From a virus, in IMG/VR virus record IMGVR_UViG_3300046168_000026, positions 112,265-176,264 of that record: a DNA stretch of 64,000 nucleotides. The stretch is one strand, 5' to 3'. Position 1 is the first letter of the stretch. Every line of letters starts with the position of its first letter. Under the pieces are notes generated by a model, which worked only from the letters and a program-made list of their open reading frames with translations, had not been told where the DNA came from and did no database searches. Positions 14,597 to 37,336 of the stretch are shown here, piece after piece. The position numbers were made by a program, and so were the translations under genes.

Positions 14597-15436
14597 TTAT
14601 TCATTACCACTCTTTTTAGAGATTTTAATGCCAGAAAGACTTGGGTCTTCTGAAAATGAAACTTTTCCAATCGATACTGTTCGTTTAGTATTGTTGTTTA
14701 GTCCGACATATTCTGGAACGATATAAGCCTTAGTTACTAAAGATATTGTTGCTTTAGTAATTCTATCTTGACCCATCTCGGACATTGTTTCAAATGAGTA
14801 AGAATCACCTTTTATTACAAACTTATATCTTTCACCAAAAGAACGACCTTGGAAAAATACAATTTGCTCTACAACTTTGTTAACTTGTTCCATATAGTCA
14901 CACCAAACTATCACTTCATATTGTAAATCAACATAATCAGGTCTTTCAACTGACATAAATTCTTTCTTTGGATTTTCTCCTGTCAGTATTGCAAATTGGT
15001 CGTACTTATTAAGTTTATTGTACTTTCTTTCAAAGAACTGATGTGTATCTTCGTTTTGTGCAACTTTTAATTTTGCTAAATCGGTGTTTACTGATAGATT
15101 ATCTCTTTTAAAAACAATAACGGGAGTTAACATCATTCCGTTTTCGTCTCTCATAAACCCATCTCGTTGTGCACTTGCCCACTTTTCAGGTGATGCATAC
15201 ATTACAGGAACAGGATAAAATCTTCCATCATCCTCAACAGTTGGTCTTACATCCTTTTCTAAAAAGTTTTTAAATGCAGAATCGATATCGTAAATACCAA
15301 CACTTACATTTTTTACATTATCCTTATCCCTTCTATACTGCTTTGCTTTATTTAATATAGGGTCAGGTGATGTAGAAGATTGTGTTTGTATAATCTGAGG
15401 TTTCGAGTTGTCTGTATTTCTGTATTTAGTTGCCAT
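14597..15436 (-). CDS. Tail terminator/sheath stabiliser (T4 gp15-like)
   Basis: Contains VPVMYASPEKW and PDYVDLQYEVIVW; follows the neck genes and precedes the sheath. Confidence 0.6.
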   Translation of the reverse strand: MATKYRNTDNSKPQIIQTQSSTSPDPILNKAKQYRRDKDNVKNVSVGIYDIDSAFKNFLEKDVRPTVEDDGRFYPVPVMYASPEKWASAQRDGFMRDENGMMLTPVIVFKRDNLSVNTDLAKLKVAQNEDTHQFFERKYNKLNKYDQFAILTGENPKKEFMSVERPDYVDLQYEVIVWCDYMEQVNKVVEQIVFFQGRSFGERYKFVIKGDSYSFETMSEMGQDRITKATISLVTKAYIVPEYVGLNNNTKRTVSIGKVSFSEDPSLSGIKISKKSGNE

Positions 15437-15439
15437 CGT

Positions 15440-15967
15440 TTATAGTCCCATTGGTACTTCGTTATCATTTTGGTTTGAATTACCGAATCTTGTTTCTACT
15501 AATTTAATACTTGTTTGTCTTGTAACATGACTATCACATATAATAGATACATTTAAACCTTGAGCATCACCACCATCCCAATACTGAGGATTCTTTCCTG
15601 CAAAGTATTGATATGAGTATGATGCGTCTATTAGATGATATTCATTATTCCATTGTACAATATCACCAACTGCAGGTACTAAATCTTTTTCTTTTAATGT
15701 ATCTCTTAAAAACTTAAACTGAACTTCACGAGAATATGATTGTCCAAACTCATCAGATATTTGTGCTGCTTGATTTCTTTCTACTAAACATGGTATTTTT
15801 ATTGGATTGTGAAATACTTTATTGTCACCCTCACCATATAAATTAGATTTGGTTTCAGTAATCGCAACCATATAGTAATACACTTCTGTATCAATTATAT
15901 CATTAATGAGTTCTTTGTTCAATTTATTAAACAAACTCATATCTCTTTGTCCACCGAACAATGCCAT
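15440..15967 (-). CDS. Neck/head-closure protein (T4 gp14-like)
   Basis: Contains VYYY...NLYGE and PAVGDIV.WNNEY; gp13-gp14-gp15 synteny. Confidence 0.6.
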   Translation of the reverse strand: MALFGGQRDMSLFNKLNKELINDIIDTEVYYYMVAITETKSNLYGEGDNKVFHNPIKIPCLVERNQAAQISDEFGQSYSREVQFKFLRDTLKEKDLVPAVGDIVQWNNEYHLIDASYSYQYFAGKNPQYWDGGDAQGLNVSIICDSHVTRQTSIKLVETRFGNSNQNDNEVPMGL

Positions 15968-15970
15968 AAA

Positions 15971-17134
15971 TTACCCTATAAAAATTGGTCTTGGTACTCT
16001 GTTTAAAGTTTCCTCTAAGTATTCAGACTCTTCTTTTTTTGCTTCCATTAATGCTCTACGAGAAGTTGATTCTAACATTTCTTTCAAGTCAGTTAACAAA
16101 GTTTCTTTTTCAGCCGAAGCTTCATTTCTTAAATCAGACCCATCAAGTGTTACATCTGCACCTGGTATAGGAATAGAACTAAATTTAGCTCTGATAGCAC
16201 CTAACATTTCTTTTGCTAATGCCAATGCGTATCGTGCAATCCATTGTTTACCTGCACTATTGATATTAGTATATGTTAATCTTCCAAATGGTGCGTTTGA
16301 TAAATCACTTACAACATTTGAATTTGCAATTGGTGATTTACTTTCACTTTCTAATGTATAATCGAAATATACTTTTGCACCTGTATCTTTTCCTTGAGGG
16401 AATGGATATAATCTAATTCGTTGTCCATCTATATGGAATCCATATGATGATTTTCTAATATAATCATTAAATTCAATTGCTTGTAATCTTAATAAGTCAT
16501 CAAACATTGGTTGCATCATGAATGAAACACCTGGCGAGTAATTACCCCATCCAAAAGTTTCTAACATTTGCTGAGAACCTAATCCTGTTCCGATGAATGG
16601 GTCAAAGTATCTTATGATTGCTGGTGGTTGTGTATGGAATACTCGTCTAAGTACGATACCATCATTTACTGAACCATTTTCTAAGTTCACCACATTTGCA
16701 TCAGATAAATCATAAATTTGTTTACCTGCCACCATTTCAAAAGAACCTGTATATACTGTTACTCGTCCACCACTTAATGCTTCAGTACCATAATCTTTTG
16801 CTATACTAACCATACCATTTAGATTTGGTGCAATCTCAGTATCAGACAAATCAGTACCTAAAGCAGTACCTTGTATTGACAACATATTTTCTTTTGCTCT
16901 GTATTGATTTACTTGTGAAGAGTATTCGTTAGCTGCTTCTTCAAGACAAGTAAAAAAGTTTATATCTTGCAACTCGACATCTACGATTGGGTATCCCAAT
17001 CTCTTCGCACACCATTCTGCTACTTTCGGAGCGTCATTCTGAAATTGAGTATCAGAATCAAAGAATCCGAAAGGAGTTGATGAACCACTTGAAAATGAAC
17101 CTGAACCAGGCCATATTGGAATGTTTACTGCCAT
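15971..17134 (-). CDS. Neck protein (T4 gp13-like)
   Basis: Contains RLGYPIVDVEL, WIARYALALAKEMLG.IRAKF..IPIPG..VTLDG and terminal PIFIG. Confidence 0.75.
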   Translation of the reverse strand: MAVNIPIWPGSGSFSSGSSTPFGFFDSDTQFQNDAPKVAEWCAKRLGYPIVDVELQDINFFTCLEEAANEYSSQVNQYRAKENMLSIQGTALGTDLSDTEIAPNLNGMVSIAKDYGTEALSGGRVTVYTGSFEMVAGKQIYDLSDANVVNLENGSVNDGIVLRRVFHTQPPAIIRYFDPFIGTGLGSQQMLETFGWGNYSPGVSFMMQPMFDDLLRLQAIEFNDYIRKSSYGFHIDGQRIRLYPFPQGKDTGAKVYFDYTLESESKSPIANSNVVSDLSNAPFGRLTYTNINSAGKQWIARYALALAKEMLGAIRAKFSSIPIPGADVTLDGSDLRNEASAEKETLLTDLKEMLESTSRRALMEAKKEESEYLEETLNRVPRPIFIG

Positions 17135-17169: not shown

Positions 17170-18981
17170 TTAGCTTTCCCTATTTTCCATGAACGAAACT
17201 ACAATATAACGAGTACCTTTAGTGGTTGCACGCGCTCCATGCTTATGAGTTATATTGCCAGGATGTAATGTTGCGTAACCAATTGGATTTTTTACTAACT
17301 TCTTTTGTCTTCTGAACCAAGTACCACCACCTTCGTATTCATCTAAATCTGATAGTTGTACTAAACAAGTAATATCTGCCCTATCGTGATGTATTCCCAA
17401 GTGTCCTTGTGCAGTTGGTATATATTTTGCTAAAAAGTTTTCGGAACTCATACTATCCCATCCTTTACCTTCTAACGCCCATAAATATACTGCAACTTGC
17501 ATAACATAGTCTTTCAATACATCATTATATATCTCGTCCATTCCAATTTCTGTTATCAACATATCAGTTGTTGGGTAATTTTCATGTCGGTCAAAAGTCC
17601 ATCTATTAGAATGTTCGGCTTCTTCTCTAATCATTTTACAAAATTCTTCAGTAAATAAAGGAAATTGAAAACAACTATCAAATGGTTCGTCTACTATCAA
17701 ATCCCATTCCTTTGTACGAGCTGAATATGATATGAATTTTTTTGTCCACTCATCTTTGTTGTCCCAATATGTGTATAGTTCTGGATGAAGTTTTTCAAAT
17801 CCAAAATCTTCTGGCGGAGTAAATCCTCTTGCCTCATCTGGTAACTTATCATTCACCAAATTATACCACTCTACATATCTGTCACTCCAATTTTGTTTTC
17901 TTGCAAATTGTTCAGCACTATCTAACAACTTCTTGTGTTCTTTTACTTGTTGACTTGAAAAAGCAAATGCTGCGATAAATGTATATCGCATAAGGCCTGT
18001 ATTTTTATTTTCCCATTTGTAGTTATCAGGGGAACTATCATCAAATGGAGTTTCACCTGACTCATGAGTATGTGAACTTATTAATGTACTTTTATTATCG
18101 AGTAAGTGTTTTAAATTACCTGTATCAGATGATAGAAGTTTAACTCTACCCATCATCATTTCAAGAGCAGTTATACAATATGTTTCAGGATACTGAGATG
18201 GGTAAATCCACCACTCAGAAGATTTAATTTGTTTGTATAACTCAGATGGATTTAGTGAACCTAAATAATGTACATCAAAGTCTCTTTCATAAGTTGGGTA
18301 ATCTTTTTTTATTCGTTCTAAAGTGTCCCAATCATTAGTATAAGGTGGTGATGCAACCCACAAAGTTAAATTAGGATTAATGTTTTTTAAATCATCCCAA
18401 ATATTTAACAGATTCCACAATCCTCTATCAGGTCCAGATGTGTAAATTACTTTGTCTTTAAATTTTTCTTGTTGGATGGAATCAAAGTCGGATGGGTTTA
18501 TAGCATTTCCTATAACTTTAACCTTTTCAGAGTTTAAATTATATTTTTTCACTAATTGACCCTTTTGCCACTCTGATACTGCGATTATATTTGTTAATTT
18601 AGGATGGTTTAGATAATCTACTCCATCATTTGGAAGAGTCTCACCATTATACCATGAATAGAACTCTAAATTATGTATCCAAAAGTAAGAACTATCGAAT
18701 GTTATATTTTTATCTTCTAAAACTTTAAAGTAATGAATGTAATTTGATGCAATAACAACATCAAAGTGTTGATTGTTATCAATACTGTCATAATCAATAA
18801 ATTTTAGATTATTTGTTTGACTATTTGAAACTTCACCTGTAATTATTACCTCGTGACCTTTCTTTTCAAACTCTTTAGCTAAGTTAATGACGCAATATTC
18901 AGAACCACCCATACCTTTTTGTTTTAGTATGGTGTCATTAATTGGTTCGTTTTGATATCCTACTGTAAATAAAACTCTCAT
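17170..18981 (-). CDS. GT4-type glycosyltransferase fused to a PLOD/lysyl-hydroxylase-like 2OG-Fe(II) dioxygenase
   Basis: N-terminus has GT-B motifs GMGGSE, IIAVSEWQ and YPETYCITALE. C-terminus FPLFTEEFC..ENYPTTD..NFLAKY..HHD..YEGGGTWF..LHPGNITHKHG..GTRYIVVSF parallels the procollagen-lysine hydroxylase catalytic domain. Confidence 0.85.
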   Translation of the reverse strand: MRVLFTVGYQNEPINDTILKQKGMGGSEYCVINLAKEFEKKGHEVIITGEVSNSQTNNLKFIDYDSIDNNQHFDVVIASNYIHYFKVLEDKNITFDSSYFWIHNLEFYSWYNGETLPNDGVDYLNHPKLTNIIAVSEWQKGQLVKKYNLNSEKVKVIGNAINPSDFDSIQQEKFKDKVIYTSGPDRGLWNLLNIWDDLKNINPNLTLWVASPPYTNDWDTLERIKKDYPTYERDFDVHYLGSLNPSELYKQIKSSEWWIYPSQYPETYCITALEMMMGRVKLLSSDTGNLKHLLDNKSTLISSHTHESGETPFDDSSPDNYKWENKNTGLMRYTFIAAFAFSSQQVKEHKKLLDSAEQFARKQNWSDRYVEWYNLVNDKLPDEARGFTPPEDFGFEKLHPELYTYWDNKDEWTKKFISYSARTKEWDLIVDEPFDSCFQFPLFTEEFCKMIREEAEHSNRWTFDRHENYPTTDMLITEIGMDEIYNDVLKDYVMQVAVYLWALEGKGWDSMSSENFLAKYIPTAQGHLGIHHDRADITCLVQLSDLDEYEGGGTWFRRQKKLVKNPIGYATLHPGNITHKHGARATTKGTRYIVVSFMENRES

Positions 18982-18983
18982 AT

Positions 18984-20270
18984 CTATTCTACTATATAAT
19001 TAACAAATTCTTCGTTTTTACCATATCTGTCATAATCTCTATAACTGATATCTTTTATTGAATGGTTTTTTTCATAATCCCACATCCAATCTTCTTTTCC
19101 TAATTCCTCAAATCTATCCTTTATTTGAGTATCATAATAATCTCTAATTAACCTTGCTCTTCGGTTAATATCAACTCTATTGTTGTCAACAGTAGAGTCT
19201 CCATTATTATATTGTACATATAACATTTTTTTAAGATGAATAAATTTAGTTTCTAAAAATGTTTTAATAATTAATTCTAAATCATCTGCGACTGAAATAT
19301 TTCTATTGTGTCCTCTGATTTTATGATACACATCTCGATTCCAAACTCTACAATGGTTTGGCATCCCAATATTAAATCTAATTGTTTTTGGATTTATTTC
19401 AGGATAATGATGTACTAACCACTCTTTATCATCAATCTCTTGCCAAGTATGACCTGCGTAACCCCATACAAATCCATTCTCAGAATGACCATACCAATCA
19501 TCACCTATGTAACCATATATTCTCGGTGAATTATCCTTTTCAACTTCAGTTACATCTGTATAAATAAATCCAGCATCTGTATGTTTCTTACTTGCATCAA
19601 GAACATCTTCTAAACAAGTTGATATTAACCAATCATCGTGGTCTAATTCAAATAACCACTCACCATTACATAACATTGCCGCTCTATGTTTAGCCTCACC
19701 AACATTTCCACCTGATATTGGTGATATTCTATATGGTTTTACCCTATAATCTAATTTAGCTATATGATTTATCATTTGCCAAGTTAAATGATGGTCTTCT
19801 GGTGAATCATCTACCACAACCCACTCCCAATTCTGATATGTTTGTTCTAATAGAGATTTGTATGTTCTAAATATTCTATTTTCAGTTTTATATGTTGGAG
19901 TGAATACTGATAATAGTGGTGAATCTTCATTACTATAAACTCTATTTGATTCACATGACCAAAAAGTTGACTGACAAACTACATCATTCGCTATTACATT
20001 ATCAGGATAAATTTCTTCTGCATTAACTATCTTAGATTTTACAATATCATCGGTTACATTTTGTAATTCCGATGGAATTTCACCTATTACATAAATAATA
20101 TCAGCTTTATGTTTGGATAAATGTGATTTCCAATTTTTAGCATCTCTGTATGAATAAATTACAACATTTTCGAATAAATCTTCTTCGTGATAGATGTCGG
20201 ATGTTAATTCGTATTTACCAAATCGTTTCCAACCATATACTAATGCCGTTGGTAAAGTAGTCTTTTGCAT
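18984..20270 (-). CDS. GT2 family glycosyltransferase
   Basis: Contains SVFTPTY, SLLEQTYQNWEWVVVDDS, ELDHDD (DxD) and ADDLEL. Confidence 0.9.
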   Translation of the reverse strand: MQKTTLPTALVYGWKRFGKYELTSDIYHEEDLFENVVIYSYRDAKNWKSHLSKHKADIIYVIGEIPSELQNVTDDIVKSKIVNAEEIYPDNVIANDVVCQSTFWSCESNRVYSNEDSPLLSVFTPTYKTENRIFRTYKSLLEQTYQNWEWVVVDDSPEDHHLTWQMINHIAKLDYRVKPYRISPISGGNVGEAKHRAAMLCNGEWLFELDHDDWLISTCLEDVLDASKKHTDAGFIYTDVTEVEKDNSPRIYGYIGDDWYGHSENGFVWGYAGHTWQEIDDKEWLVHHYPEINPKTIRFNIGMPNHCRVWNRDVYHKIRGHNRNISVADDLELIIKTFLETKFIHLKKMLYVQYNNGDSTVDNNRVDINRRARLIRDYYDTQIKDRFEELGKEDWMWDYEKNHSIKDISYRDYDRYGKNEEFVNYIVE

Positions 20271-20273
20271 ATC

Positions 20274-20876
20274 TTATCTGTAAGGTTCACCACCAACCCA
20301 TAAAACAAATGATTTTCGTATACCACTTGTTACGGGAGTTACTCTATGTAAATAAAATGAAGGAAATATAATCGCTGCTCCTTTTTTAGAAGGTGCAGTC
20401 AATTCTTTTCCAATATTAAATTGTAAGTCACCACCTTCGTATTCATTTGAATCTGAAAGTTGTACTGTTACTGATATTTTTCTTTGATTTTGTATCTCTA
20501 TACCACAATCCATATGCCAATCATACCCACCTTCTTGACTTCCGTAATATTCAGTATATTGAATTGATTCATTCATAGTAGATAAATCAAACTTCCACAT
20601 TTTTTGATTTGATTCTACAATCATATTGTGAAGTTTTTCATAAACCCATCCCCATTCTTGATTTTGAGGACACCATTTTACTCTTGATTTTCTATAATCT
20701 GATTTTTTTGATGATTCACCTTCACCTGTTGCTGCATCTTCAAATGGAAGGAGTTTGGTCATTTGTTCTATTTGACTTAATTCAGTTGAATCAAACCCAT
20801 CTGCGAACCAATAATAATCTGTGAAATTTACATCCCATCTATGAGGGTTTCTATCGAATCCAAAATTTGCTCTCAT
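20274..20876 (-). CDS. 2OG-Fe(II) oxygenase (prolyl-hydroxylase/PKHD-like)
   Basis: HxD...H triad (WHMD...LHRV), plus RKISVTVQLSD, YEGGDL and RKSFVLW. Confidence 0.9.
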   Translation of the reverse strand: MRANFGFDRNPHRWDVNFTDYYWFADGFDSTELSQIEQMTKLLPFEDAATGEGESSKKSDYRKSRVKWCPQNQEWGWVYEKLHNMIVESNQKMWKFDLSTMNESIQYTEYYGSQEGGYDWHMDCGIEIQNQRKISVTVQLSDSNEYEGGDLQFNIGKELTAPSKKGAAIIFPSFYLHRVTPVTSGIRKSFVLWVGGEPYR

Positions 20877-20895
20877 AACTTTTTTAATGTTTGTA

Positions 20896-20903
20896 TATAA
20901 ATA
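20896..20903 (-). promoter_or_regulatory. Putative late promoter TATTTATA (oxygenase/GT operon)
   Basis: Sits between the collagen stop (20915) and the oxygenase ATG (20876). Confidence 0.6.
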
Positions 20904-20914
20904 TGAAAAATAAT

Positions 20915-23900
20915 TTAGTAAAAGCTACCACTATGTACAGACCTTATGATATAGACATCATCACCTGAAGACCATCCATTTGGTTTAAATGTTAGTATAC
21001 CACCTTGAACTTCAAAATATCCTAAACCACTCATCGAAGCCCCTTGAGCACCAATTACACCTTTTACACCTTGAACACCCGTATTACCTTTAACGCCAGT
21101 ACGACCACCTGAGCCAGTTGCACCTTTATTACCTGCATTACCTTGAGCACCTTGAACACCACCACCACCTGTTGTACCTTTAGAACCTTTATCGCCTGAA
21201 TTACCTGTTTTACCTTTTAGACCTTGTAAACCTACTGCGCCTGTATTACCTTTATCACCTGCGAGGCCTGTATTCCCTTTAATACCCGTTCTACCGCCAG
21301 AGCCAGTTGCACCTTTATTACCTGCATCACCTTGAGCTCCAACTGCACCTTGGTTTCCTGTATTACCTTTAGAACCCTTATCGCCTGCATCACCTTGAGC
21401 TCCAACTGCACCTTGTAAGCCCGTTGCACCCGTATTACCTTTATCACCTGCTACGCCTGTATTACCTTTTACACCAGTACGACCACTTGAACCAGTTGCA
21501 CCTTTATTACCTGCATCACCTTGAGCTCCAACTGCACCTTGATTACCTTGGTTACCTTTTGCACCTTTATTACCTGCGAGGCCGGTATTACCTTTATTTC
21601 CTTTAACACCTTGGTTACCAGTATTTCCTTTATTACCTGCATCACCTTGAGGACCTGTTGCACCTTTTACACCTGTTCTACCACCTGAGCCAGTAACACC
21701 TTTATTACCTGCAGCACCTTGAGCACCAAGTAGACCTTGATTACCAGTATTTCCTTTAGAACCCTTATCGCCTGAGTTACCTGTTTTACCTTTTAGACCT
21801 TGTAAACCTACTGCGCCTGTATTACCTTTGTTTCCGGCAACACCCGTATTACCTTTTACACCTGTTCTACCACCTGAGCCAGTAGCACCTTTATTACCTG
21901 CATTACCCTTAGTACCTTTATCACCTTGGTTACCAGTATCTCCTTTAGCACCTTTATCACCTGCGAGGCCTGTATTACCTTTTAGACCTTGTAAACCTAC
22001 TGCGCCTGTATTACCTTTGTTACCTGCATCGCCAGTATTACCTTTTACACCTGTTCTACCAGTTGAGCCAGTAGCACCTTTATTACCTGCATCACCTTGA
22101 GCTCCAATTGCACCTTGTAAACCTACTGCGCCAGTATTTCCTTTAGAACCTTTATCGCCCGAATTACCTTTTGCACCTTTTAGACCTTGTAAGCCCGTTG
22201 CACCCGTATTACCTTTATTACCTGCGAGGCCTGTATTCCCTTTAATACCCGTTCTACCACCTGAGCCAGTAGAACCCTTATTACCTGCGAGGCCTGTATT
22301 TCCTTTAACACCTTGGTTACCAGTATTTCCTTTACTACCCTTATTACCTGCATCACCTTGAGCTCCAACTGCACCTTGTCGACCTACTGCGCCTGTATTA
22401 CCTTTGTTACCTGCTACGCCTGTATTACCTTTACACCAGTACGACCACCTGAGCCCGTACCACCTTTATTACCCGTATTTCCTTTTGCACCTGTTAGTCC
22501 TGTATCACCAGTATTTCCCTTAGCACCTTTATTACCTGCGAGGCCTGTATTTCCTTTATTTCCTTTAGCACCTTGATTACCTTGATTACCTTTAGCACCT
22601 GCGAGGCCTGTATTTCCTTTTGCACCTGTTGCACCTGCCGAACCTGCAGCACCTTTATTACCTGCGAGGCCTGTATTTCCTTTTACACCTTGGTTTCCTG
22701 TATTACCTTTAGAACCTTTATCGCCTGAATTACCTGTTTTACCTTTTAGACCTTGTAAGCCCGTTGCACCCGTATTACCTTTATTACCTGCGAGGCCTGT
22801 ATTCCCTTTTACACCTGTTCTACCACCTGAGCCAGTAACACCTTTATTACCTGCAGCACCTTGGTTACCCTTAACACCTTGATTACCAGTATTTCCTTTA
22901 GCACCTTTATTACCTGCGAGGCCGGTATTACCTTTATTTCCCTTTGCACCTTGGTTTCCTGTATTACCTTTAGCACCTGCAACACCCGTATTACCCTTAA
23001 CGCCTGTTCTACCAGTTGAGCCAGTAGAACCTTTATTACCTGTATTACCTTTGTTACCCTTAGCACCTTGGTCACCTGCCGAGCCAGTATTACCTTTTGC
23101 ACCTTTATTGCCCGAATTACCTTTTGCACCTTTTAGACCTTGTCGACCTGTGTTTCCTGTTGACCCTTTGTTTCCTGCAGAACCCGTATTACCCTTAACG
23201 CCTGTTCTACCACCTGAGCCAGTAGAACCTTTATTACCTTGAGCACCTTGGTTACCCTTAGCACCTTGTAGACCTGTATTTCCTTTAGCACCAGTTTCAC
23301 CTGCGAGGCCTGTATTTCCCTTTGAACCTTGATTACCAGTATTTCCTTTAGCACCTTTATTTCCTGCGAGGCCTGTATTTCCTTTTGAACCTTGTCGACC
23401 ACTGATTCCAGTAGCACCTTTATTTCCTGCAAGACCCGTATTACCTTTTGAACCTTGATTACCAGTATTTCCTTTTGAACCTTTTGCACCTGCGAGGCCT
23501 GTATTTCCCTTTGAACCTTGATTACCAGTATTTCCTTTAGCACCTTTATTACCTGCGAGGCCTGTATTTCCTTTTGCGCCTGTTCTACCACCTGAGCCAG
23601 TAGAACCTTTATTTCCTGCGAGGCCTGTATTTCCTTTTGAACCTTGTCGACCTGTATTACCTGTTGAACCTTTATTACCTGCGAGGCCTGTATTTCCTTT
23701 AGCACCTTGTAGACCCGTATTTCCTTTAGCACCTTGGTTACCTGCGAGGCCTGTATTACCCTTTACACCTGTTCTACCAGTTGAGCCAGTAGAACCTTTA
23801 TTTCCTGCGAGGCCTGTATTTCCTTTAGCACCTTGATTACCAGTATTTCCTTTTGAACCTTTTGCACCTGCGAGGCCTGTATTTCCTTTTACACCTTGGT

Positions 23901-25167
23901 TTCCTGTATTACCTTTTGACCCTTTTGCACCTGCGAGGCCTGTATTTCCTTTTGCGCCTGTTCTACCACCTGAGCCAGTAGAACCTTTATTACCTGCGAG
24001 GCCTGTATTTCCTTTAACTCCTTGTGCTCCTGTTGCACCTTGTGAACCAGTTGCACCTGTATTTCCTTTTACACCTTGTCGACCTGTATTACCTGTTGAA
24101 CCTTTATTACCTGCATTACCCTTTAAACCTGTTGGACCTTGAGGGCCAGTTGCGAAACCGAGTCCAGCTATACCTGTATTACCCTTTAAACCTGTTGGAC
24201 CTTGAGGGCCTGTTGCAGCTGATGCACCTGTAGCTCCCTTTGCACCCTGTCCTCCAGAAGAAGCATTTGAACCTGCATCACCTGCAGCTCCTTTTGCACC
24301 TTGAGGACCTGTGGAACTATCTGAATCGGAACAATTATTACAAGATGTATAAGCTTGATAATTACCTGAACTGTTTAAACATAGTTGAGTACCATCAGGA
24401 CTAACTGACCCTTGATTTTCATAACAAGTAGTACCTATTTTTATTACAGTAGAATTAAATTCATCTTGAAATGCAAATTCAAAATAAGCATCATCACTAC
24501 ATCTTGAAAATTCATAGGCGTACTCACATTCCTCTTCCCCGAATCCTTTATCGTTGTGTACTATGAATCTATTAACTAAGAACAAGTCAGATTCTTCAAT
24601 ATCTAATTTTGATACTGGAAACTGACCTAATAAACTTGGATTCTCGGTATTTACTTCTTGAAAACCACCTGTAACTGGCACATATTCAAATGTAGAGTTA
24701 TCTGATTTTAATTTTACTAAGTAATGGTTACTATATTCGTCTGAACCCCATTCGATTCCATCTAATTGTTCAAAGTAAATATTCCACCCGCTTTGAATAG
24801 AAGAAGTGGTTTCGGTCTCTTCATCCCAAACAACTTGTCTATTTTTCTGTGCAACAAGGATATATTCTTGGTCTGTAACTGATAAGGAACCTGATGGTGT
24901 TTCTAATGTATATACATTTGCAAACTTTAAGGTATTAGAGTTATTTGCAATAGACCAAACAACTTCTTCATTTTCATTTAATTGAATATATGAAAAATCA
25001 TTGAAACTACCCGTCCATGTAGTTGGTATATCATTTTGAAATGTATATCCACTCCCACTAAGACTAATACCTACAATAGTTGACCCTGAATTTATATTTT
25101 TTAATTCAGAAGTAGACCCTTGTAGATTTACTAAAGTATGTTGTGTATTTAAAAATCCAACTGCCAT
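20915..25167 (-). CDS. Collagen-like fibre 2 (~1417 aa): N-terminal Hint domain, Cys-rich linker, Lys/Asn-rich Gly-X-Y helix, short C-terminal domain; apparent 1-nt deletion near 22430
   Basis: ORF 22414..25167 continues as Gly-X-Y in the next frame to a TAA at 20915 (…GASMSGLGYFEVQGGILTFKPNG…HSGSFY). Length+1 is divisible by 3. The Hint domain ends FLVNRFIVHN at 24553. Confidence 0.85.
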
Positions 25168-25184
25168 TGTAACCTTATTTTAGT

Positions 25185-28100
25185 TTATGAAGAACCACTT
25201 GTATACATTAATACAACAAATTTTGTACTTCCACTCTGAAATGTTAATAATCCATCAGTTGCCGAGTATGCAAATCCACCACTTGGACCTACTTCAGCGC
25301 CACCAATTAATGTTCCAATTCCACTTGCACCTTTCTGACCTTGTCCACCTTGAAGACCTTGAGCGCCTTGAGAACCTTTTGGTCCTTGAGCACCTTGAGC
25401 CCCCGTAGGACTTGCACCTTGAGCACCTTGAGGACCTTGAGCACCTTGAGCACCTTGGTCACCTTGAGGACTTGCACCTTGAGCACCTTGGTCACCTTGA
25501 GGACCTTGAGCACCTTGTGCACCAGTTGGACTGGCACCTTGTGCACCTTGAGAACCTTTTGGTCCTTGAGCACCTTGAGCCCCCGTAGGACTTGCACCTT
25601 GAGCACCTTGGTCACCTTGAGGACCTTGTGCACCTGTATCTCCTTTTGGACTTGCACCTTGAGCACCTTGGTCACCTTGAGGACCTTGAGCACCTTGTGC
25701 ACCAGTTGGACTGGCACCTTGAGCACCTTGAGAACCTTTTGGTCCTTGAGCACCTTGAGCCCCCGTAGGACTTGCACCTTGAGCACCTTGGTCACCTTGA
25801 GGACCTTGTGCCCCTGTATCACCTTTAGGACTTGAACCTTGAGCACCTTGAGCACCTTGGTCACCTTTAGGACCTTGAGCACCTTGAGGACTTGCCCCTT
25901 GAGCACCCGTTGCTCCTTGAGCACCTTGAGGACCTTGAGCACCTTGAGCTCCCGTAGGACTTGCACCTTGAGCACCTTGGTCACCTTTAGGACCTTGTGC
26001 ACCTGTATCTCCTTTTGGACTTGCACCTTGAGCACCTTGGTCACCTTGAGGACCTTGAGCACCTTGAGCACCTGTTGGACTGGCACCTTGAGCACCTTGA
26101 GAACCTTTTGGTCCTTGAGCACCTTGTGCACCAGTTGGACTTGCACCTTGAGCACCTTGGTCACCTTGAGGACCTTGTGCCCCTGTATCACCTTTAGGAC
26201 TCGAACCTTGAGCACCTTGAGAACCTTTTGGTCCTTGAGCACCTTGAGCACCTTGAGGACTTGAACCTTGAGCACCTTGAGAACCTTTTGGTCCTTGAGC
26301 ACCTTGTGCACCAGTTGGACTTGCACCTTGAGCACCTTGGTCACCTTGAGGACCTTGAGCACCTTGAGCACCTTGGTCACCTTTAGGACTTGAACCTTGA
26401 GCACCTTGGTCACCTTGAGGACCTTGAGCACCTTGTGCACCAGTTGGACTGGCACCTTGAGCACCTTGAGAACCTTTTGGTCCTTGAGCACCTTGAGCCC
26501 CCGTAGGACTTGCACCTTGAGCACCTTGAGAACCTTTAGGACCTTGAGCACCTGTATCACCTTTAGGACTCGAACCTTGAGCACCTTGGTCACCTTGAGG
26601 ACCTTGAGCACCTTGTGCACCAGTTGGACTGGCACCTTGAGCACCTTGAGAACCTTTTGGTCCTTGAGCACCTTGAGCACCTTGAGGACTTGCTCCTTGA
26701 GAACCTTTTGGTCCTTGAGCACCTTGAGCACCTGTATCACCTTTAGGACTTGAACCTTGAGCACCTTGAGCACCTTGGTCACCTTTAGGACCTTGTGCTC
26801 CCGTAGGACTTGCACCTTGAGCACCTTGTGAACCTTTTGGTCCTTGAGCACCTTGAGCACCTTGAGGACTTGAACCTTGAGCACCTTGAGAACCTTTAGG
26901 ACCTTGAGCACCTGTATCACCTTTAGGACTCGAACCTTGAGCACCTTGGTCACCTTGAGGACCTTGAGCACCTTGTGCGCCAGTTGGACTCGAACCTTGT
27001 GCACCTTGAGAACCTTTAGGTCCTTGAGCACCTTGTGCACCAGTTGGACTGGCACCTTGAGCACCCGTATCTCCTTTAGGACCTTGTGCACCTGTATCTC
27101 CTTTAGGACTTGAACCTTGAGCACCTTGAGCACCTTGGTCACCTTTAGGACCTTGTGCTCCCGTAGGACTTGCACCTTGAGCACCCTGTGAACCTTTTGG
27201 TCCTTGAGCACCTTGAGCACCTTGAGGACTGGCACCTTGAGCACCCGTATCTCCTTTAGGACCTTGTGCACCTTGAGCACCTTGGTCACCTTTAGGACTA
27301 GCACCTTGAGCACCTTGGTCACCTTGAGGACCTTGAGCACCTTGTGCACCAGTTGGACTGGCACCTTGAGCACCCGTACTTCCTTTAGGTCCTTGAGCAC
27401 CTTGAGCCCCCGTAGGACTTGCACCTTGAGCACCTTGAGAACCTTTTGGTCCTTGAGCACCTTGTGAACCTTTTGGACTGGCACCTTGAGCACCTTGTGA
27501 ACCTTTTGGTCCTTGTGCACCTGTATCACCTTTTGGACTTGCACCTTGAGCACCTTGAGAACCCTTTGGTCCTTGTGCACCTTGAGCACCTGTTGGACTT
27601 GCACCTTGAGCACCTTGAGAACCTTTAGGACCTTGAGCACCTGTATCACCTTTAGGACTCGAACCTTGAGCACCTTGTGAACCCTTTGGTCCTTGTGCAC
27701 CTGTATCACCTTTTGGACTGGCACCTTGAGCACCTTGAGAACCTTTTGGTCCTTGAGCACCTTGAGCACCTGTTGGACTTGCACCTTGAGCACCTTGAGA
27801 ACCCTTTGGTCCTTGTGCACCTTGAGCACCTGTTGGACTCGAACCTTGAGCACCTTGAGAACCCTTTGGTCCTTGAGCACCTTGTGAACCCTTTGGACTT
27901 GAACCTTGAGCACCTTGAGAACCTTTTGGTCCTTGAGCACCTTGAGCCCCCGTAGGACTAGCTCCTTGAGCACCTTGTGAACCCTTTGGTCCTTGTGCAC
28001 CTGTATCACCTTTTGGACTGGCACCTTGAGCACCTTGTGAACCTTTTGGTCCTTGTGCCCCTGTATCACCTTTAGGACTCGAACCTTGAGCACCTTGAGA

Positions 28101-28895
28101 ACCTTTTGGTCCTTGAGCACCTTGAGCACCTGTTGGACTTGCACCTTGAGCACCCGTAGTTCCTTTTGGTCCTTGAGCACCTTGAGCACCTTGAGGACTT
28201 GCACCTTGTGAACCTTTTGGTCCTTGAGCACCTTGAGCACCTTGAGGACTTGCACCTTGTGAACCTTTTGGTCCTTGAGCACCTTGTGCGGATGAACCTG
28301 ATGAACCTTGAGCACCTTGAGAACCTTTTGGCCCTTGAGCACCTTGAGAACTTGCACCTTGAGCACCTGTAGCTCCCTTTGCACCCGTTGAACCAGATGA
28401 ACCTGCCGAACCTTTTTGTCCTTTTTGTCCTTTAGCACCTTGAGGACCTGTATTGTGTATTAGTAACTCACCTACAAAGTAATTATGGTCTGGTTCTACT
28501 TCGATACTTATAAGTTCTATTGGTTTTTCAACTAATTTTACTGAAGTTATCTTTATTCCATTGAAAAATGGTGTAGTACCACATTTACAATCACCACAAC
28601 CACATGATTCGTTACCGACTGGTGAAACCCATTCACCATCTTTATATATTTTTATATCGACAGAAGTTTTTAGCTCAGTTCCGTCTGAAAGTTTAATTTG
28701 TAAGTAGGAGTCGAGAGTTCTTTCCCATTTGGTTACAACCTTATTGTACCTAATGACCCCATTTTCAACATCATAACCTTTTATATAGTCACCAAGTTCA
28801 ATATTAGACAAATTGATTGGAACGCCTTGTCTATTATTTACTCTTCCTTTGATGTCTACTAAGGTATCTTTATGTAATCCATGTATATGTTCCAT
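25185..28895 (-). CDS. Collagen-like fibre 1 (1236 aa): N-terminal Hint domain, ~1040-aa periodically interrupted Gly-X-Y helix, short C-terminal domain
   Basis: Hint-like GLHKDTLV...[18 protein letters not shown]|T (ends 28452), then ~20-aa/60-bp repeats [20 protein letters not shown]. Confidence 0.9.
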
Positions 28896-28905
28896 AACTT
28901 ACCCC

Positions 28906-29737
28906 TTAACTAACAAAATCAAGTCTTAATATTATTGTGAAACCAAATCCCCTTGACCTGGCCGATGAACCTCTATTTACTAATAAACTTAATGGTGCAC
29001 TACCACTAAATGCATATGTTGAACCAAAAGTATAGGTTGTTGGAACACCTGCGGTTGCTGAAATTGTTCCATTTACTTCGGTTGAAATATTGCCACCCTC
29101 TTCTTTCCATTGTAATCCAACAGTACCACTTGTTGCAGATTGATGTGGACTTACAATTACTGATTCTATATATCCATCGACAGGCGCTACATATTGCCAA
29201 TAACCAGTTTGAACTTCTGCATCCATTTGGTTTATATTGCCAAATGGTACATAGCCAGTTACTTCAGATGCTTTTTAGTACCTCACCATTTGTTACAATG
29301 ATTTGTTTTTCTTTTTCTGCGTCAAGTGAACCTATAATTGTAACACCACTATTATTTACTTGTAGTCTTTTTGTACCACCTGTTTTAACTTCAAAACTAT
29401 CTGCACCACCAAATCCAAATTTAGTGTTGGTATCACCTTTATGTTCAATGTATGTTGGTATTTCTATTAGACCAGATGCGGTAATATCAACGGCAGACAA
29501 GCTTGATTTACTCGTTAATGTATTATCTACGGTAAAACTCGTAAATCTACCATCGTTAAATGTTAGTGCTGATGTACCAACCGACCCTATATTGTCGGTT
29601 TGTGGGACAATATTCGCTCCTGCGTTAAATTGTCCTTCAAGTTGAAAACCACCTTCGAATAATACATCCGATGAGGCGGTTACTTTGTTTAATACGGCAT
29701 TACTGCCAGAAGTTATTAATTTTTTCCAATTTGGCAT
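28906..29737 (-). CDS. Fibre/virion protein (~276 aa); apparent 1-nt insertion near 29273
   Basis: ORFs 29264..29737 and 28906..29226 fuse (GEVLKASEVTGYVPFGNINQMDAE) if one A is removed. N-terminus is MPNWKKLITSGS. Confidence 0.65.
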
Positions 29738-30032: not shown

Positions 30033-30218
30033 TTATAATTTATCGTGTTCGTTTTGTAATTTTACTGCTAATTTGTAGATTCGTTCAATATCTCGTCCTT
30101 GGAAAGTTCCATTGGATATTAAAAACAAGAGAACCTCAAGCTCATTTTTACTAAGCTTGAGGTTTGTCTCTTTTTTTTGTGGTTGTGTTGTTTTACTAAT
30201 GTTTTTGTGATTCGACAT
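30033..30218 (-). CDS. Small helical protein, possible fibre chaperone
   Basis: LSKNELEVLLFLISNGTFQGRDIERIYKLAVKLQ; likely start MSNHK at 30218. Confidence 0.6.
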   Translation of the reverse strand: MSNHKNISKTTQPQKKETNLKLSKNELEVLLFLISNGTFQGRDIERIYKLAVKLQNEHDKL

Positions 30219-36667: not shown

Positions 36668-37336
36668 TTAATCATATGAAAATAATAATTTTAAGACTTC
36701 ATCCAAAGATTCGTGTCTATGGTTGTCTTTTAAGTTTACATTAAAAACAAATAACGATTCCTTCAGTTTATGAACTTCGTGTACCGCTGAGTCGTTTGCA
36801 AATTTTAAATCTATTTGTTGAGGGTCACCACATAACATCATTGTAGAGTGTTTACCCAAACGACCCAAGACCATAGCTAATTGTTGTTTAGTTAAGTTTT
36901 GAAACTCGTCTACTATAACTATTGAATTATCAAAAGTTCTTCCTCTAAAGTGTGATAAAGATACTAATTCAATATTCTCATCCTTTTCCATCTTTTCTAA
37001 GATTGTAGGTTTGTTGTAGACTTTTCTCATATTAGAACGAATTGGAACTAACCAGGGTTCCATTTTTTCATCTAATGAGCCAGGTAAGAATCCGTTGTCT
37101 TCATTTGATATGGTAGGTCTTGTTATAACTATTTTATTAACTTCTCGTTTAAAAAAACTATCAAGTGCAATCTGAACTGCTAATAGTGTTTTACCACTAC
37201 CTGCTTTTCCTAATATAAAATTAAATGGATGATTTCTTATTTGTGCTTTTGCTTGTTTTTGCTCTTCTGATAAACTTATTGAAAATCTAACATTTCCTTT
37301 TGGAGCTTTCTTCGCGATATTCTCTGCCATAGACAA
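36668..37336 (-). CDS. phoH: PhoH-like ATPase
   Basis: Walker A GKAGSGKT, plus GFLPG, FRGRTF, DEFQN, GDPQQIDL and HRH. Confidence 0.9.
   Translation of the reverse strand: MSMAENIAKKAPKGNVRFSISLSEEQKQAKAQIRNHPFNFILGKAGSGKTLLAVQIALDSFFKREVNKIVITRPTISNEDNGFLPGSLDEKMEPWLVPIRSNMRKVYNKPTILEKMEKDENIELVSLSHFRGRTFDNSIVIVDEFQNLTKQQLAMVLGRLGKHSTMMLCGDPQQIDLKFANDSAVHEVHKLKESLFVFNVNLKDNHRHESLDEVLKLLFSYD

What the first reader, a model, noticed from the sequence alone, without database searches (positions are those of the whole stretch)
17170..28895. Phage procollagen-like maturation locus: two collagen chains with self-cleaving pro-domains plus dedicated hydroxylases and glycosyltransferases
Seen: two adjacent genes, each built as Hint domain + ~1000-residue Gly-X-Y helix + related short C-terminal domain (G.LTF...SGS). 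They are directly followed by a 2OG-Fe(II) oxygenase, a GT2 and a GT4::lysyl-hydroxylase fusion, then the gp13/14/15 neck genes. Both collagens are full of Gly-X-Lys-Gly (GPKG, GAKG, GNKG, GVKG, GSKG). Established: animal PLOD/LH3 and mimivirus L230 hydroxylate Lys in X-Lys-Gly and glycosylate hydroxylysine; T4 fibritin (wac) lies just before gp13. Inference: the phage builds ~300-nm hydroxylated, glycosylated collagen whiskers by a route paralleling animal procollagen (C-terminal nucleation, modification, N-propeptide removal), with Hint autoproteolysis in place of a propeptidase. Caveat: X-Pro-Gly is essentially absent from both chains, so the stand-alone oxygenase is probably not a classical P4H on these substrates.
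Basis: partly seen in the sequence, partly recalled or inferred. Interest (0 to 1): 0.92.

Follow-up and report, generated by a model that had tools for sequence, protein, structure and literature searches.

The report
Phage collagen fibres with lysine-modifying enzymes
An uncultured T4-like bacteriophage encodes two giant collagen-like fibre proteins next to a relative of the animal collagen lysine hydroxylase fused to a sugar transferase. Related phages that lack this enzyme also lack lysine in their collagens, so the phage most likely hydroxylates and sugar-coats its own fibres in an animal-like way.

Summary
On the minus strand lie two giant Gly-X-Y genes, a 200-aa 2OG oxygenase, a GT2, a GT4::lysyl-hydroxylase fusion, then gp13/gp15-like neck genes and the sheath.

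- **Lysyl hydroxylase:** the fusion's C-terminal 210 aa match human LH3 (E 9e-31) and mimivirus L230 (E 7e-22). The iron and 2-oxoglutarate ligands are intact.
- **Collagen 1:** its N-terminus is a true Hint domain by sequence and fold. It has lost the N-terminal nucleophile and kept the C-terminal cleavage motifs.
- **Collagen 2:** its N-terminal domain is only weakly Hint-like. The gene is also broken in this record by a 1-nt deletion in an A-run, while every relative is intact.
- **Conservation:** 56 related metagenomic loci carry the hydroxylase fusion directly upstream of gp13, and every one long enough shows the rest of the cassette.
- **Key comparison:** eight relatives lack the hydroxylase fusion. 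In the six with collagen sequence, Lys fills 0-4% of Y positions, against 6-40% in loci with the fusion. This may trace to only 1-3 evolutionary events.
- **Other enzymes:** the small oxygenase and GT2 persist where lysine is absent, so they probably do not act on lysine.

The neck-whisker location, C-terminal nucleation and actual Hint cleavage remain inference. I found no published description in bacteriophages. This scan has already noted similar cassettes in other phage genomes.

The parts
25185..28895 (-). Collagen 1, 1236 aa: N-terminal Hint, about 1045 aa of Gly-X-Y with a G-x-S-P-x-G interruption about every 20 residues, and a 42-aa C-terminal cap.
   Evidence: 60-nt repeat period.
28452..28895 (-). 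Hint domain of collagen 1 (residues 1-148), ending in His-Asn followed by Thr149. Position 1 is Gly rather than Cys, the block-B Thr-x-x-His is lost, and blocks F and G are intact.
   Evidence: phmmer hits are bona fide PT-HINT proteins. Alignment A1. AF2 pLDDT 85.6. Foldseek top hits are BIL2, the gp41-1 intein and a C. thermocellum BIL, TM 0.7-0.77.
25188..25313 (-). C-terminal cap of collagen 1 (G-G-F-x-[FY] ... L-T-F ... S-G-S).
   Evidence: Homologous to the collagen 2 cap and conserved in relatives. No solved relative.
20915..25167 (-). Collagen 2, about 1420 aa if read through. It is split in this record into frame A (22414-25167) and frame B (20915-22465).
   Evidence: Intact in all relatives.
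22430..22432 (-). Frameshift site in collagen 2. AAA stands where the repeat unit has AAAA: GGTGTAAA-GGTAAT.
   Evidence: The intact 20-mer occurs 9 times in the gene at no more than 1 mismatch.
24553..25167 (-). N-terminal domain of collagen 2 (residues 1-205). It is weakly Hint-like and ends in Val-His-Asn.
   Evidence: hhalign against the Hint alignment gives probability 56%, E 1e-4, end to end. AF2 failed at pLDDT 43. No Pfam or PHROG hit.
24310..24552 (-). Cys-rich linker of about 80 aa between the Hint-like domain and the collagen helix of chain 2.
   Evidence: Variable in relatives, but Cys residues and the D-S-D-S-S-T end are kept.
20918..21037 (-). C-terminal cap of collagen 2.
20274..20876 (-). 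200-aa 2OG-Fe(II) oxygenase of the PKHD/PiuC-YbiX type, with HxD...H...R intact.
   Evidence: PF13640 E 1.4e-13. phrog_61. PDB 3dkq and PiuC. NCBIfam PRK05467 below cut-off.
18984..20270 (-). 428-aa GT2 (GT-A) glycosyltransferase with an N-terminal extension of about 115 aa that has no family hit.
   Evidence: PF00535 E 5e-17. Chondroitin synthase E 4e-12. The DHDD motif is visible.
17170..18981 (-). 603-aa fusion of a GT4 (GT-B) domain (residues about 1-385, E266-x7-E274) and a PLOD-type lysyl hydroxylase domain (residues 393-603; H531-x-D533, H579/H581, R591).
   Evidence: Invariant columns across nine family members.
15971..17134 (-). gp13-like neck or head-completion protein.
   Evidence: phrog_211. 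PF26809 on an 88%-identical homologue. tblastn hits.
14597..15967 (-). A 175-aa gene in the gp14 position and a gp15-like 279-aa gene.
   Evidence: PF16724 E 1.5e-4, below cut-off. Synteny with Mel-JY01.
28906..29737 (-). Fibre-like gene at the head of the same tightly packed block. It is a single ORF in relatives but split here by an extra A at 29272-29276.

Best explanation
This is a conserved late-gene cassette of a clade of uncultured aquatic T4-like myoviruses. It makes two very long collagen-like fibre proteins, each about 300 nm if triple-helical, together with their own modification enzymes.

**Proposed mechanism**
- The PLOD-type domain of the 603-aa fusion hydroxylates the many Lys residues at the Y position (X-Lys-Gly) of both chains.
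- The fused GT4 domain then glycosylates the hydroxylysine. GT2, or GT25 in some relatives, may extend or add sugars.
- The small oxygenase acts on something other than lysine.
- The N-terminal Hint of chain 1 can only do C-terminal Asn cyclisation. It is probably a self-removing pro-domain that leaves a chain starting at Thr149.
- The homologous ~40-aa C-terminal caps probably trimerise or anchor the chains.

**What is shown and what is inferred**
- Shown: domain identities, catalytic residues, synteny, and the link between hydroxylase and lysine.
- Inferred: the chemistry, the cleavage, trimer formation, and where the fibres sit on the virion.
For: 1. The LH domain matches LH3 (E 9e-31) and mimivirus L230 (E 7e-22) over its full length. 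The HxD...H triad and the Arg are aligned and invariant in nine phage and bacterial members.
2. Lys is at Y in 158 triplets and at X in 3.
3. A glycosyltransferase is fused to the hydroxylase in at least three architectures: GT4-LH, GT4-GT25-LH and GT25-LH. GT25 is the family of the animal collagen galactosyltransferases (established knowledge).
4. The gene order col1-col2-oxygenase-(GT2)-GT4::LH-gp13 is kept in 56 fusion-bearing loci, wherever the contig reaches far enough, at 60-99% enzyme identity. More distant phages (Mel-JY01, immuto) have neither collagens nor enzymes at this site.
5. Six relatives without the fusion have collagens with 0-4% Lys at Y, including one chain with no Lys in 952 aa. 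Loci with the fusion have 6-40%. Lys content of gp13, GT2 and the oxygenase is the same in both groups, 3.4-6.4%.
6. The genes are packed 2-38 nt apart on the structural-gene strand. The same intergenic motif that precedes other genes on this strand, including the fibre gene and gp13, precedes the enzyme genes.
7. Hint of chain 1: fold and homology. H137, Y139, H147 and N148 are invariant and Thr+1 is kept in all collagen-linked members.
Against: - No biochemical or proteomic data exist.
- On the GT2 tree the fusion-less loci form one clade (SH-aLRT 94). The oxygenase tree needs 2-3 changes. The hydroxylase-lysine link may therefore rest on only 1-3 events, and paired tests cannot reach significance.
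- The fusion-less records are 3-16% complete fragments, so a hydroxylase elsewhere in those genomes is not excluded.
- Bacterial homologues at 40-44% identity stand alone, away from any collagen gene.
- Lys prefers the Y position in collagens generally (established knowledge), so position alone is weak evidence.
- Chain 2 is frameshifted in this record.
- The chain 2 Hint-like domain lacks the block-F His, and one relative has Arg in place of the penultimate His.
Confidence: 0.6

Rival explanations
1. The hydroxylase modifies the collagen lysines, but the fused GT4 and the GT2 do not use hydroxylysine as acceptor. They would glycosylate Ser or Thr of the collagens, as in Bacillus BclA, or another virion protein.
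For: GT2 and the small oxygenase persist with Lys-free collagens. Thr and Ser are abundant at Y, at 7-38%. GT4 has a different fold from the GT domains of LH3 and L230.
Against: The GT4 domain is lost together with the hydroxylase in every fusion-less locus. Three independent GT-hydroxylase fusion architectures exist, which points to coupled steps.
Confidence: 0.15
2. The enzymes act on targets other than the phage collagens, such as host envelope glycans, host proteins or DNA. Their position beside the collagen genes would be only a matter of genome organisation.
For: Bacterial homologues of the fusion are not next to collagen genes. The genome holds three more 2OG oxygenases elsewhere.
Against: The lysine content of the collagens tracks the presence of the hydroxylase. 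The nearest characterised relatives are collagen lysyl hydroxylases. The genes lie inside the structural block. Four of five bacterial genomes with the fusion hold collagen-like ORFs elsewhere. One Aliishimia ORF has Lys at 64 Y positions against 1 at X.
Confidence: 0.08
3. The N-terminal Hint domains are not cleaved. They would be retained as globular heads or virion-attachment domains, and the fibres would be tail, baseplate or head fibres rather than neck whiskers.
For: After cleavage chain 1 would have no N-terminal globular domain to attach with. The chain 2 domain is catalytically degenerate. The genes just upstream are fibre and baseplate-connector-like. No fibritin family hit was found.
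Against: In chain 1 the residues needed for Asn cyclisation are invariant while those for the N-terminal step are lost. That pattern is expected for a cleavage-only module. The position just before gp13 parallels T4 wac (established knowledge).
Confidence: 0.3

Closest known systems
Mimivirus collagen system: L230, a bifunctional lysyl hydroxylase and glucosyltransferase (PDB 6ax6), with mimivirus collagens
   Same: A virus encodes its own collagen-like proteins and a PLOD-type hydroxylase fused to a glycosyltransferase. The LH domain is homologous (E 7e-22).
   Different: The host is bacterial. The fused transferase is a GT-B (GT4) domain and lies N-terminal. Extra enzymes are present (a small oxygenase and GT2). 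The collagens carry Hint pro-domains. The genes form one cassette within the run of fibre, neck and tail genes.
Animal LH3/PLOD3 with COLGALT1/2
   Same: Best sequence match for the LH domain (E 9e-31), with the same iron and 2OG ligands. Lys sits in X-Lys-Gly. Relatives of this phage add a GT25 domain of the COLGALT family.
   Different: There is no LH3-type GT-A or accessory domain and no classical P4H substrate (no Pro at Y). Any triple helix must be stable without 4-hydroxyproline.
Pretoxin-HINT and bacterial intein-like (BIL) domains
   Same: Same fold (TM 0.7-0.77) and the same C-terminal His-Asn cleavage motif. In polymorphic toxins these domains are proposed to release the downstream domain (established knowledge).
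   Different: Here the domain lies at the extreme N-terminus with no N-extein. Cys1 and the block-B His are lost. What would be released is a ~1000-residue collagen.
Self-cleaving intramolecular chaperone domains of phage fibres (endosialidase / Peptidase_S74 type) and T4 fibritin (wac)
   Same: The idea of a terminal domain that assists fibre assembly and then removes itself. The gene position directly upstream of gp13 matches wac.
   Different: Those chaperones are C-terminal serine-lysine proteases, not Hint domains. No sequence similarity to fibritin or S74 was found.
Prophage and bacterial collagen-like proteins (E. coli prophage fibres, Scl, BclA)
   Same: Gly-X-Y fibres of phage or bacterial origin with terminal trimerisation domains.
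   Different: Those have tens to a few hundred triplets and no dedicated lysyl hydroxylase. The predicted bacterial collagen hydroxylation systems use other dioxygenase families together with sulfotransferases (PMC2938197).

Membership tests
PLOD-type collagen lysyl hydroxylase (LH domain) | Full-length sequence homology to the LH domain of LH3 and L230 | tested here: met
   Residues 393-599 match LH3 498-714 (E 9e-31) and L230 25-234 (E 7e-22).
PLOD-type collagen lysyl hydroxylase (LH domain) | Fe(II) triad HxD...H and the 2OG-binding Arg | tested here: met
   H531-x-D533, H579/H581 and R591 align with the LH3 residues. They are invariant in nine members.
PLOD-type collagen lysyl hydroxylase (LH domain) | Hydroxylates Lys in X-Lys-Gly of a collagen | not testable with these tools
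   Indirect evidence only: Lys at Y 158 against 3 at X, and Lys-free collagens where the enzyme is absent.
Hint / intein superfamily (collagen 1 N-terminus) | Hint fold | tested here: met
   AF2 pLDDT 85.6. Foldseek probability 1.0 to BIL and intein structures. phmmer hits are PT-HINT proteins.
Hint / intein superfamily (collagen 1 N-terminus) | C-terminal block F/G with His-Asn | tested here: met
   H137, Y139, H147 and N148 are invariant in 26 sequences, and Thr follows in all collagen-linked members.
Hint / intein superfamily (collagen 1 N-terminus) | N-terminal Cys/Ser nucleophile and block-B Thr-x-x-His, needed for splicing | tested here: not met
   Position 1 is Gly (Ser in one relative) and the block-B His is replaced. 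It is not a splicing intein and at most a module for C-terminal cleavage.
Hint / intein superfamily (collagen 2 N-terminus) | Recognisable Hint homology or fold | tested here: inconclusive
   hhalign probability 56%, E 1e-4. AF2 pLDDT 43. Not found by the Hint profile in the genome.
Collagen triple-helix repeat proteins | Long uninterrupted or regularly interrupted Gly-X-Y repeats | tested here: met
   PF01391 E 7e-79, 8e-92 and 5e-70. 676 triplets counted.
Collagen triple-helix repeat proteins | Forms a trimeric helix | not testable with these tools
GT4 (GT-B) glycosyltransferases | Family profile above cut-off and the E-x7-E motif | tested here: met
   PF13439 at 36.3 bits and PF00534 at 30.3 bits, both above cut-off. 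E266 and E274 are invariant.
Classical collagen prolyl 4-hydroxylase (for the 200-aa oxygenase) | Substrate motif X-Pro-Gly in the partner collagen | tested here: not met
   No Pro at Y in either chain. The enzyme belongs to the PF13640 / PKHD-type group.
T4 fibritin (wac) neck whiskers | Sequence homology to fibritin | tested here: not met
   No fibritin family among the Pfam or PHROG hits for either chain or their termini.
T4 fibritin (wac) neck whiskers | Gene directly upstream of gp13 and protein attached at the neck | tested here: inconclusive
   The collagen genes and then the three enzyme genes lie upstream of gp13. Attachment cannot be tested.

The most novel reading that the evidence does not exclude
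Bacteriophages of aquatic bacteria build ~300-nm collagen fibres carrying glycosylated hydroxylysine. They use a PLOD-type hydroxylase fused to interchangeable glycosyltransferases, and they mature one chain by a Hint domain reduced to a single-use N-terminal self-cleaving pro-domain. Collagen lysine hydroxylation and glycosylation would then be a widespread prokaryotic-virus chemistry rather than an animal and giant-virus speciality. Lysine content of the fibres would co-evolve with the enzyme.
Probability: 0.4. Interest if true: 0.85.

Novelty: new variant of a known kind. Interest (0 to 1): 0.78.

Why it matters
- PLOD-type lysyl hydroxylation followed by glycosylation is known from animals and from mimivirus. 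A large family of such enzymes inside bacteriophage structural cassettes, with collagens whose lysine content follows the enzyme, would widen the known range of this chemistry and bear on its origin.
- It offers compact, cytoplasm-compatible enzymes for making hydroxylated or glycosylated recombinant collagen in bacteria.
- It suggests a new use of Hint domains as N-terminal pro-domains of fibres.
- The natural contrast between Lys-rich fibres with the enzyme and Lys-free fibres without it gives a direct experimental handle on what the modification does for the phage.

Tried and rejected
- **Megablast against phage records:** the enzyme region gave no match.
- **Read-level check of the two frameshifts:** I cannot tell assembly error from a real mutation. 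Programmed frameshifting seems unlikely, because the sites are A3 and A5 runs without a slippery heptamer and all relatives are in frame.
- **Trimer prediction for the C-terminal cap:** not available.
- **AlphaFold2 of the collagen 2 N-terminal domain:** pLDDT 43, too poor for a fold search. The Atlas feature search gave only its own viral collagen cluster at 0.84.
- **PDB profile search with the cap:** only chance SH3 hits at E about 1.
- **A collagen feature that tracks GT2 or the small oxygenase:** I compared Asn, Thr, Ser and Pro content and the SPxG interruptions and found no clean pattern.
- **Independent-pair test of hydroxylase against lysine:** only 1-3 pairs, so it cannot reach significance. 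The 5 changes on the gp13 tree reflect shuffling of the cassette between backbones, not independent losses.
- **Search of the fusion-less records for a hydroxylase elsewhere:** only cross-hits to the small oxygenase, and those records are 3-16% complete.
- **Literature searches:** no description of a bacteriophage lysyl hydroxylase or of a Hint-collagen fusion. The library lacks most subscription journals.
Full report
**Source and layout.** The window is the last 64 kb of a 176,264-bp IMG/VR virus record that CheckV rates 97% complete. It is a distant T4-like myovirus. Its gp13-like protein is 49% identical to that of Microcystis phage Mel-JY01 and 37% to Flavobacterium phage immuto. All genes of interest lie on the minus strand.

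Reading downstream, the gene order is:
- gp23 major capsid protein (37428-39089)
- PhoH (36668-37336)
- a 1419-aa fibre with a baseplate-connector-like N-terminus
- a 220-aa gene, then a 439-aa gene followed by a strong terminator-like hairpin
- a small fibre-like gene (28906-29737)
- collagen 1 (25185-28895)
- collagen 2 (20915-25167)
- a 200-aa oxygenase, a GT2 and a GT4::LH fusion
- gp13-like, gp14-position and gp15-like genes, a 93-aa ORF, then the tail sheath

Spacers inside the block are 2-38 nt. In Mel-JY01 and immuto, the region from the capsid gene through PhoH to the gp13 homologue holds only a few small genes and neither collagens nor these enzymes. The roughly 19-kb fibre, collagen and enzyme block is therefore specific to this clade.

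**The collagens.** Collagen 1 has 1236 aa.
- About 1045 aa are Gly-X-Y with a 20-residue (60-nt) period.
- Each period ends in a G-x-S-P-x-G interruption. There are 48 Pro-containing interruptions.

Collagen 2 is an almost uninterrupted helix with a 21/63-residue period. In this record it is split into two frames.
- At 22430-22432 the sequence reads GGTGTAAA-GGTAAT.
- The intact unit, GGTGTAAAAGGTAATACAGG, occurs 9 times in the same gene at no more than one mismatch.
- Every relative has one intact ORF of 1236-1826 aa. The 99%-identical contigs are open across the last 740-800 aa.

A second homopolymer frameshift, an extra A at 29272-29276, splits the upstream fibre-like gene, which is one ORF in relatives. 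Two homopolymer indels within 7 kb of a metagenome assembly look like sequence errors. I could not check reads.

At 0.286 nm per residue (established value), each helix would be about 300 nm long.

Lys occupies the Y position 158 times and the X position 3 times, with 17 more in SPKG interruptions. The two ~40-aa C-terminal caps are homologous to each other and conserved across relatives. They have no solved relative.

**The Hint domains.** For collagen 1 the Pfam hit is sub-threshold (PT-HINT E 3e-4). Stronger evidence came from three sources:
- An exhaustive phmmer search found 173 proteins. The non-collagen hits are bona fide PT-HINT or intein-splicing domains.
- The AlphaFold2 model has pLDDT 85.6.
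- Foldseek places it with BIL2, the gp41-1 intein and the C. thermocellum BIL at TM 0.7-0.77.

The alignment shows what is kept and what is lost:
- The Cys1 position is Gly, or Ser in one relative.
- The block-B Thr-x-x-His is gone.
- Only 5-7 residues precede the domain.
- Block F (E-P-D-H-N-Y-F) and the terminal His-Asn are invariant, followed by Thr in all collagen-linked members.

The only chemistry left is Asn cyclisation, that is, C-terminal cleavage releasing a chain that starts T-G-P-Q-G-A-K-G.

For collagen 2 the evidence is weak.
- There is no family hit and the fold prediction failed (pLDDT 43).
- Profile-profile comparison to the Hint alignment gives 56% probability (E 1e-4). It does run end to end and aligns the terminal V-H-N.
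- The block-F His is replaced, and one relative has Arg for the penultimate His.
- A Cys-rich linker of about 80 aa separates this domain from the helix.

I treat it as a degenerate Hint whose cleavage is uncertain.

The phage has a third, fully canonical Hint in the giant ORF at 56974-63999, with Cys1, S-x-x-H, and His-Asn followed by Thr.

**The enzymes.** Residues 393-599 of the 603-aa protein match the LH domain of human LH3 (E 9e-31) and mimivirus L230 (E 7e-22). H531-x-D533, H579/H581 and R591 are aligned and invariant in nine phage and bacterial members.

The N-terminal half is GT4, a GT-B fold, with an invariant E-x7-E. This differs from the transferase domains of LH3 and L230, so the fusion arose independently. 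Relatives carry GT4-GT25-LH (about 790 aa) and GT25-LH (482 aa). GT25 is the family of the animal collagen galactosyltransferases.

The 428-aa protein is a GT2 with a DxD motif. The 200-aa oxygenase belongs to PF13640, the PKHD/PiuC type, with intact ligands.

**Comparative test.** I anchored searches on the fusion and on gp13 and collected 71 related loci with a near-full-length gp13. In 64 of them presence or absence of the fusion could be judged.
- All 56 fusion-bearing loci show, as far as the contig reaches, the order col1-col2-oxygenase-(GT2)-fusion-gp13.
- GT2 is missing from some of them, for example L023.
- Eight loci lack the fusion cleanly, with GT2 ending about 55 nt before gp13. 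They keep the oxygenase, GT2 and, where covered, collagens with the same caps and the same interruption motif.
- In the six fusion-less loci with collagen sequence, Lys at Y is 0/54, 0/65, 0/122, 1/43, 4/94 and 12/656. One 952-aa chain has no Lys at all.
- Fusion-bearing loci range from 6% to 40%, typically 25-33%.
- Lys content of gp13, GT2 and the oxygenase is alike in both groups, 3.4-6.4%. The depletion is therefore specific to the collagens.

Its weight is limited. The gp13 tree needs 5 changes of state. On the GT2 tree, however, the fusion-less loci form one clade (SH-aLRT 94), and the oxygenase tree needs 2-3 changes. The cassette has moved between gp13 backbones, and the association may reflect as few as one event, although it is maintained across a deep and diverse clade. 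The fusion-less records are also fragments.

**Bacterial homologues.** Homologues of the fusion at 40-44% identity occur in Granulosicoccaceae, a Chromatiales symbiont and Aliishimia. They are solitary and not next to collagen genes. Four of five such genomes hold collagen-like ORFs above cut-off, against 4 of 14 control genomes. The Aliishimia ORF is built of G-D-K-G-D-T-G repeats with Lys at 64 Y positions against 1 at X. This is suggestive only.

**Reading.**
- Most likely the fusion enzyme hydroxylates and glycosylates the lysines of the phage's own collagens.
- The small oxygenase and GT2 do not depend on lysine, and their targets are unknown. The Pro of the S-P-x-G interruptions is one candidate, but it does not track either enzyme.
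- The chain 1 Hint is probably a self-removing pro-domain.
- The neck-whisker location rests only on the position upstream of gp13, and fibre genes lie immediately upstream too.
- C-terminal nucleation is untested.

**Novelty.** Literature searches found the mimivirus and animal systems, and a 2010 prediction that other dioxygenase families modify bacterial collagen-like proteins (PMC2938197). They found nothing on PLOD-type enzymes or Hint-collagens in bacteriophages. The scan itself has flagged similar cassettes in several other phage genomes. This window is therefore one more member of a recurrent, apparently undescribed system.

Noticed in passing
window 56974-63999 (-): A giant ORF of more than 2300 aa contains a fully canonical Hint domain at 57625-58050. 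It has Cys1, S-x-x-H, and His-Asn followed by Thr, and sits about 215 aa before the C-terminus, a pretoxin-like layout. The ORF also has a short collagen-like stretch of 15 triplets with 4 Lys at Y, at 59638-59772.
   Followed up: partly
window 29272-29276: A second homopolymer frameshift (A5 where A4 keeps the frame) splits a fibre-like gene into 157-aa and 106-aa ORFs. Relatives L012 and L017 have a single ORF. Together with the collagen 2 break, this suggests homopolymer errors in the record.
   Followed up: partly
window 14240, 14581, 17153, 20896, 36636, 37353, 40369, 45136, 47108, 49775, 50827, 54287 (+ strand coordinates): The octamer TATAAATA on the + strand (TATTTATA on the coding strand) occurs 17 times against 7.8 expected. 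It lies mostly 15-25 nt upstream of minus-strand start codons, including those of gp13, the 200-aa oxygenase, PhoH and the 1419-aa fibre. It is a candidate promoter-type motif.
   Followed up: no
window 30132-30164 (-): A 13-bp GC-containing hairpin followed by a T-run lies after the 439-aa gene. It is a likely terminator that separates it from the collagen block. Roughly 400 nt with only small ORFs follow before the next gene.
   Followed up: no
genome G000:C1 64831-65121, 78482-78796, 98188-98463 (outside the window): Three further PF13640-type 2OG-Fe(II) oxygenase genes lie elsewhere in the same phage genome.
   Followed up: no
loci L066, L074, L076, L098 (relatives without the hydroxylase): Their Lys-free collagens carry His at 6-12% of X positions, against 3% or less in hydroxylase-bearing relatives, and have almost no Arg. 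These fibres are acidic with His as the only titratable base.
   Followed up: partly
loci L023 and L097: In these GT2-less cassettes collagen 1 has lost the S-P-x-G interruptions and runs uninterrupted for up to 1191 aa. Collagen 2 of L023 has Lys at 52% of Y positions.
   Followed up: no
related loci, gp13 tree against GT2 tree: The collagen and enzyme cassette and the adjacent gp13 gene give conflicting trees: 5 changes of state against 1. The cassette has therefore been exchanged between phage backbones.
   Followed up: partly
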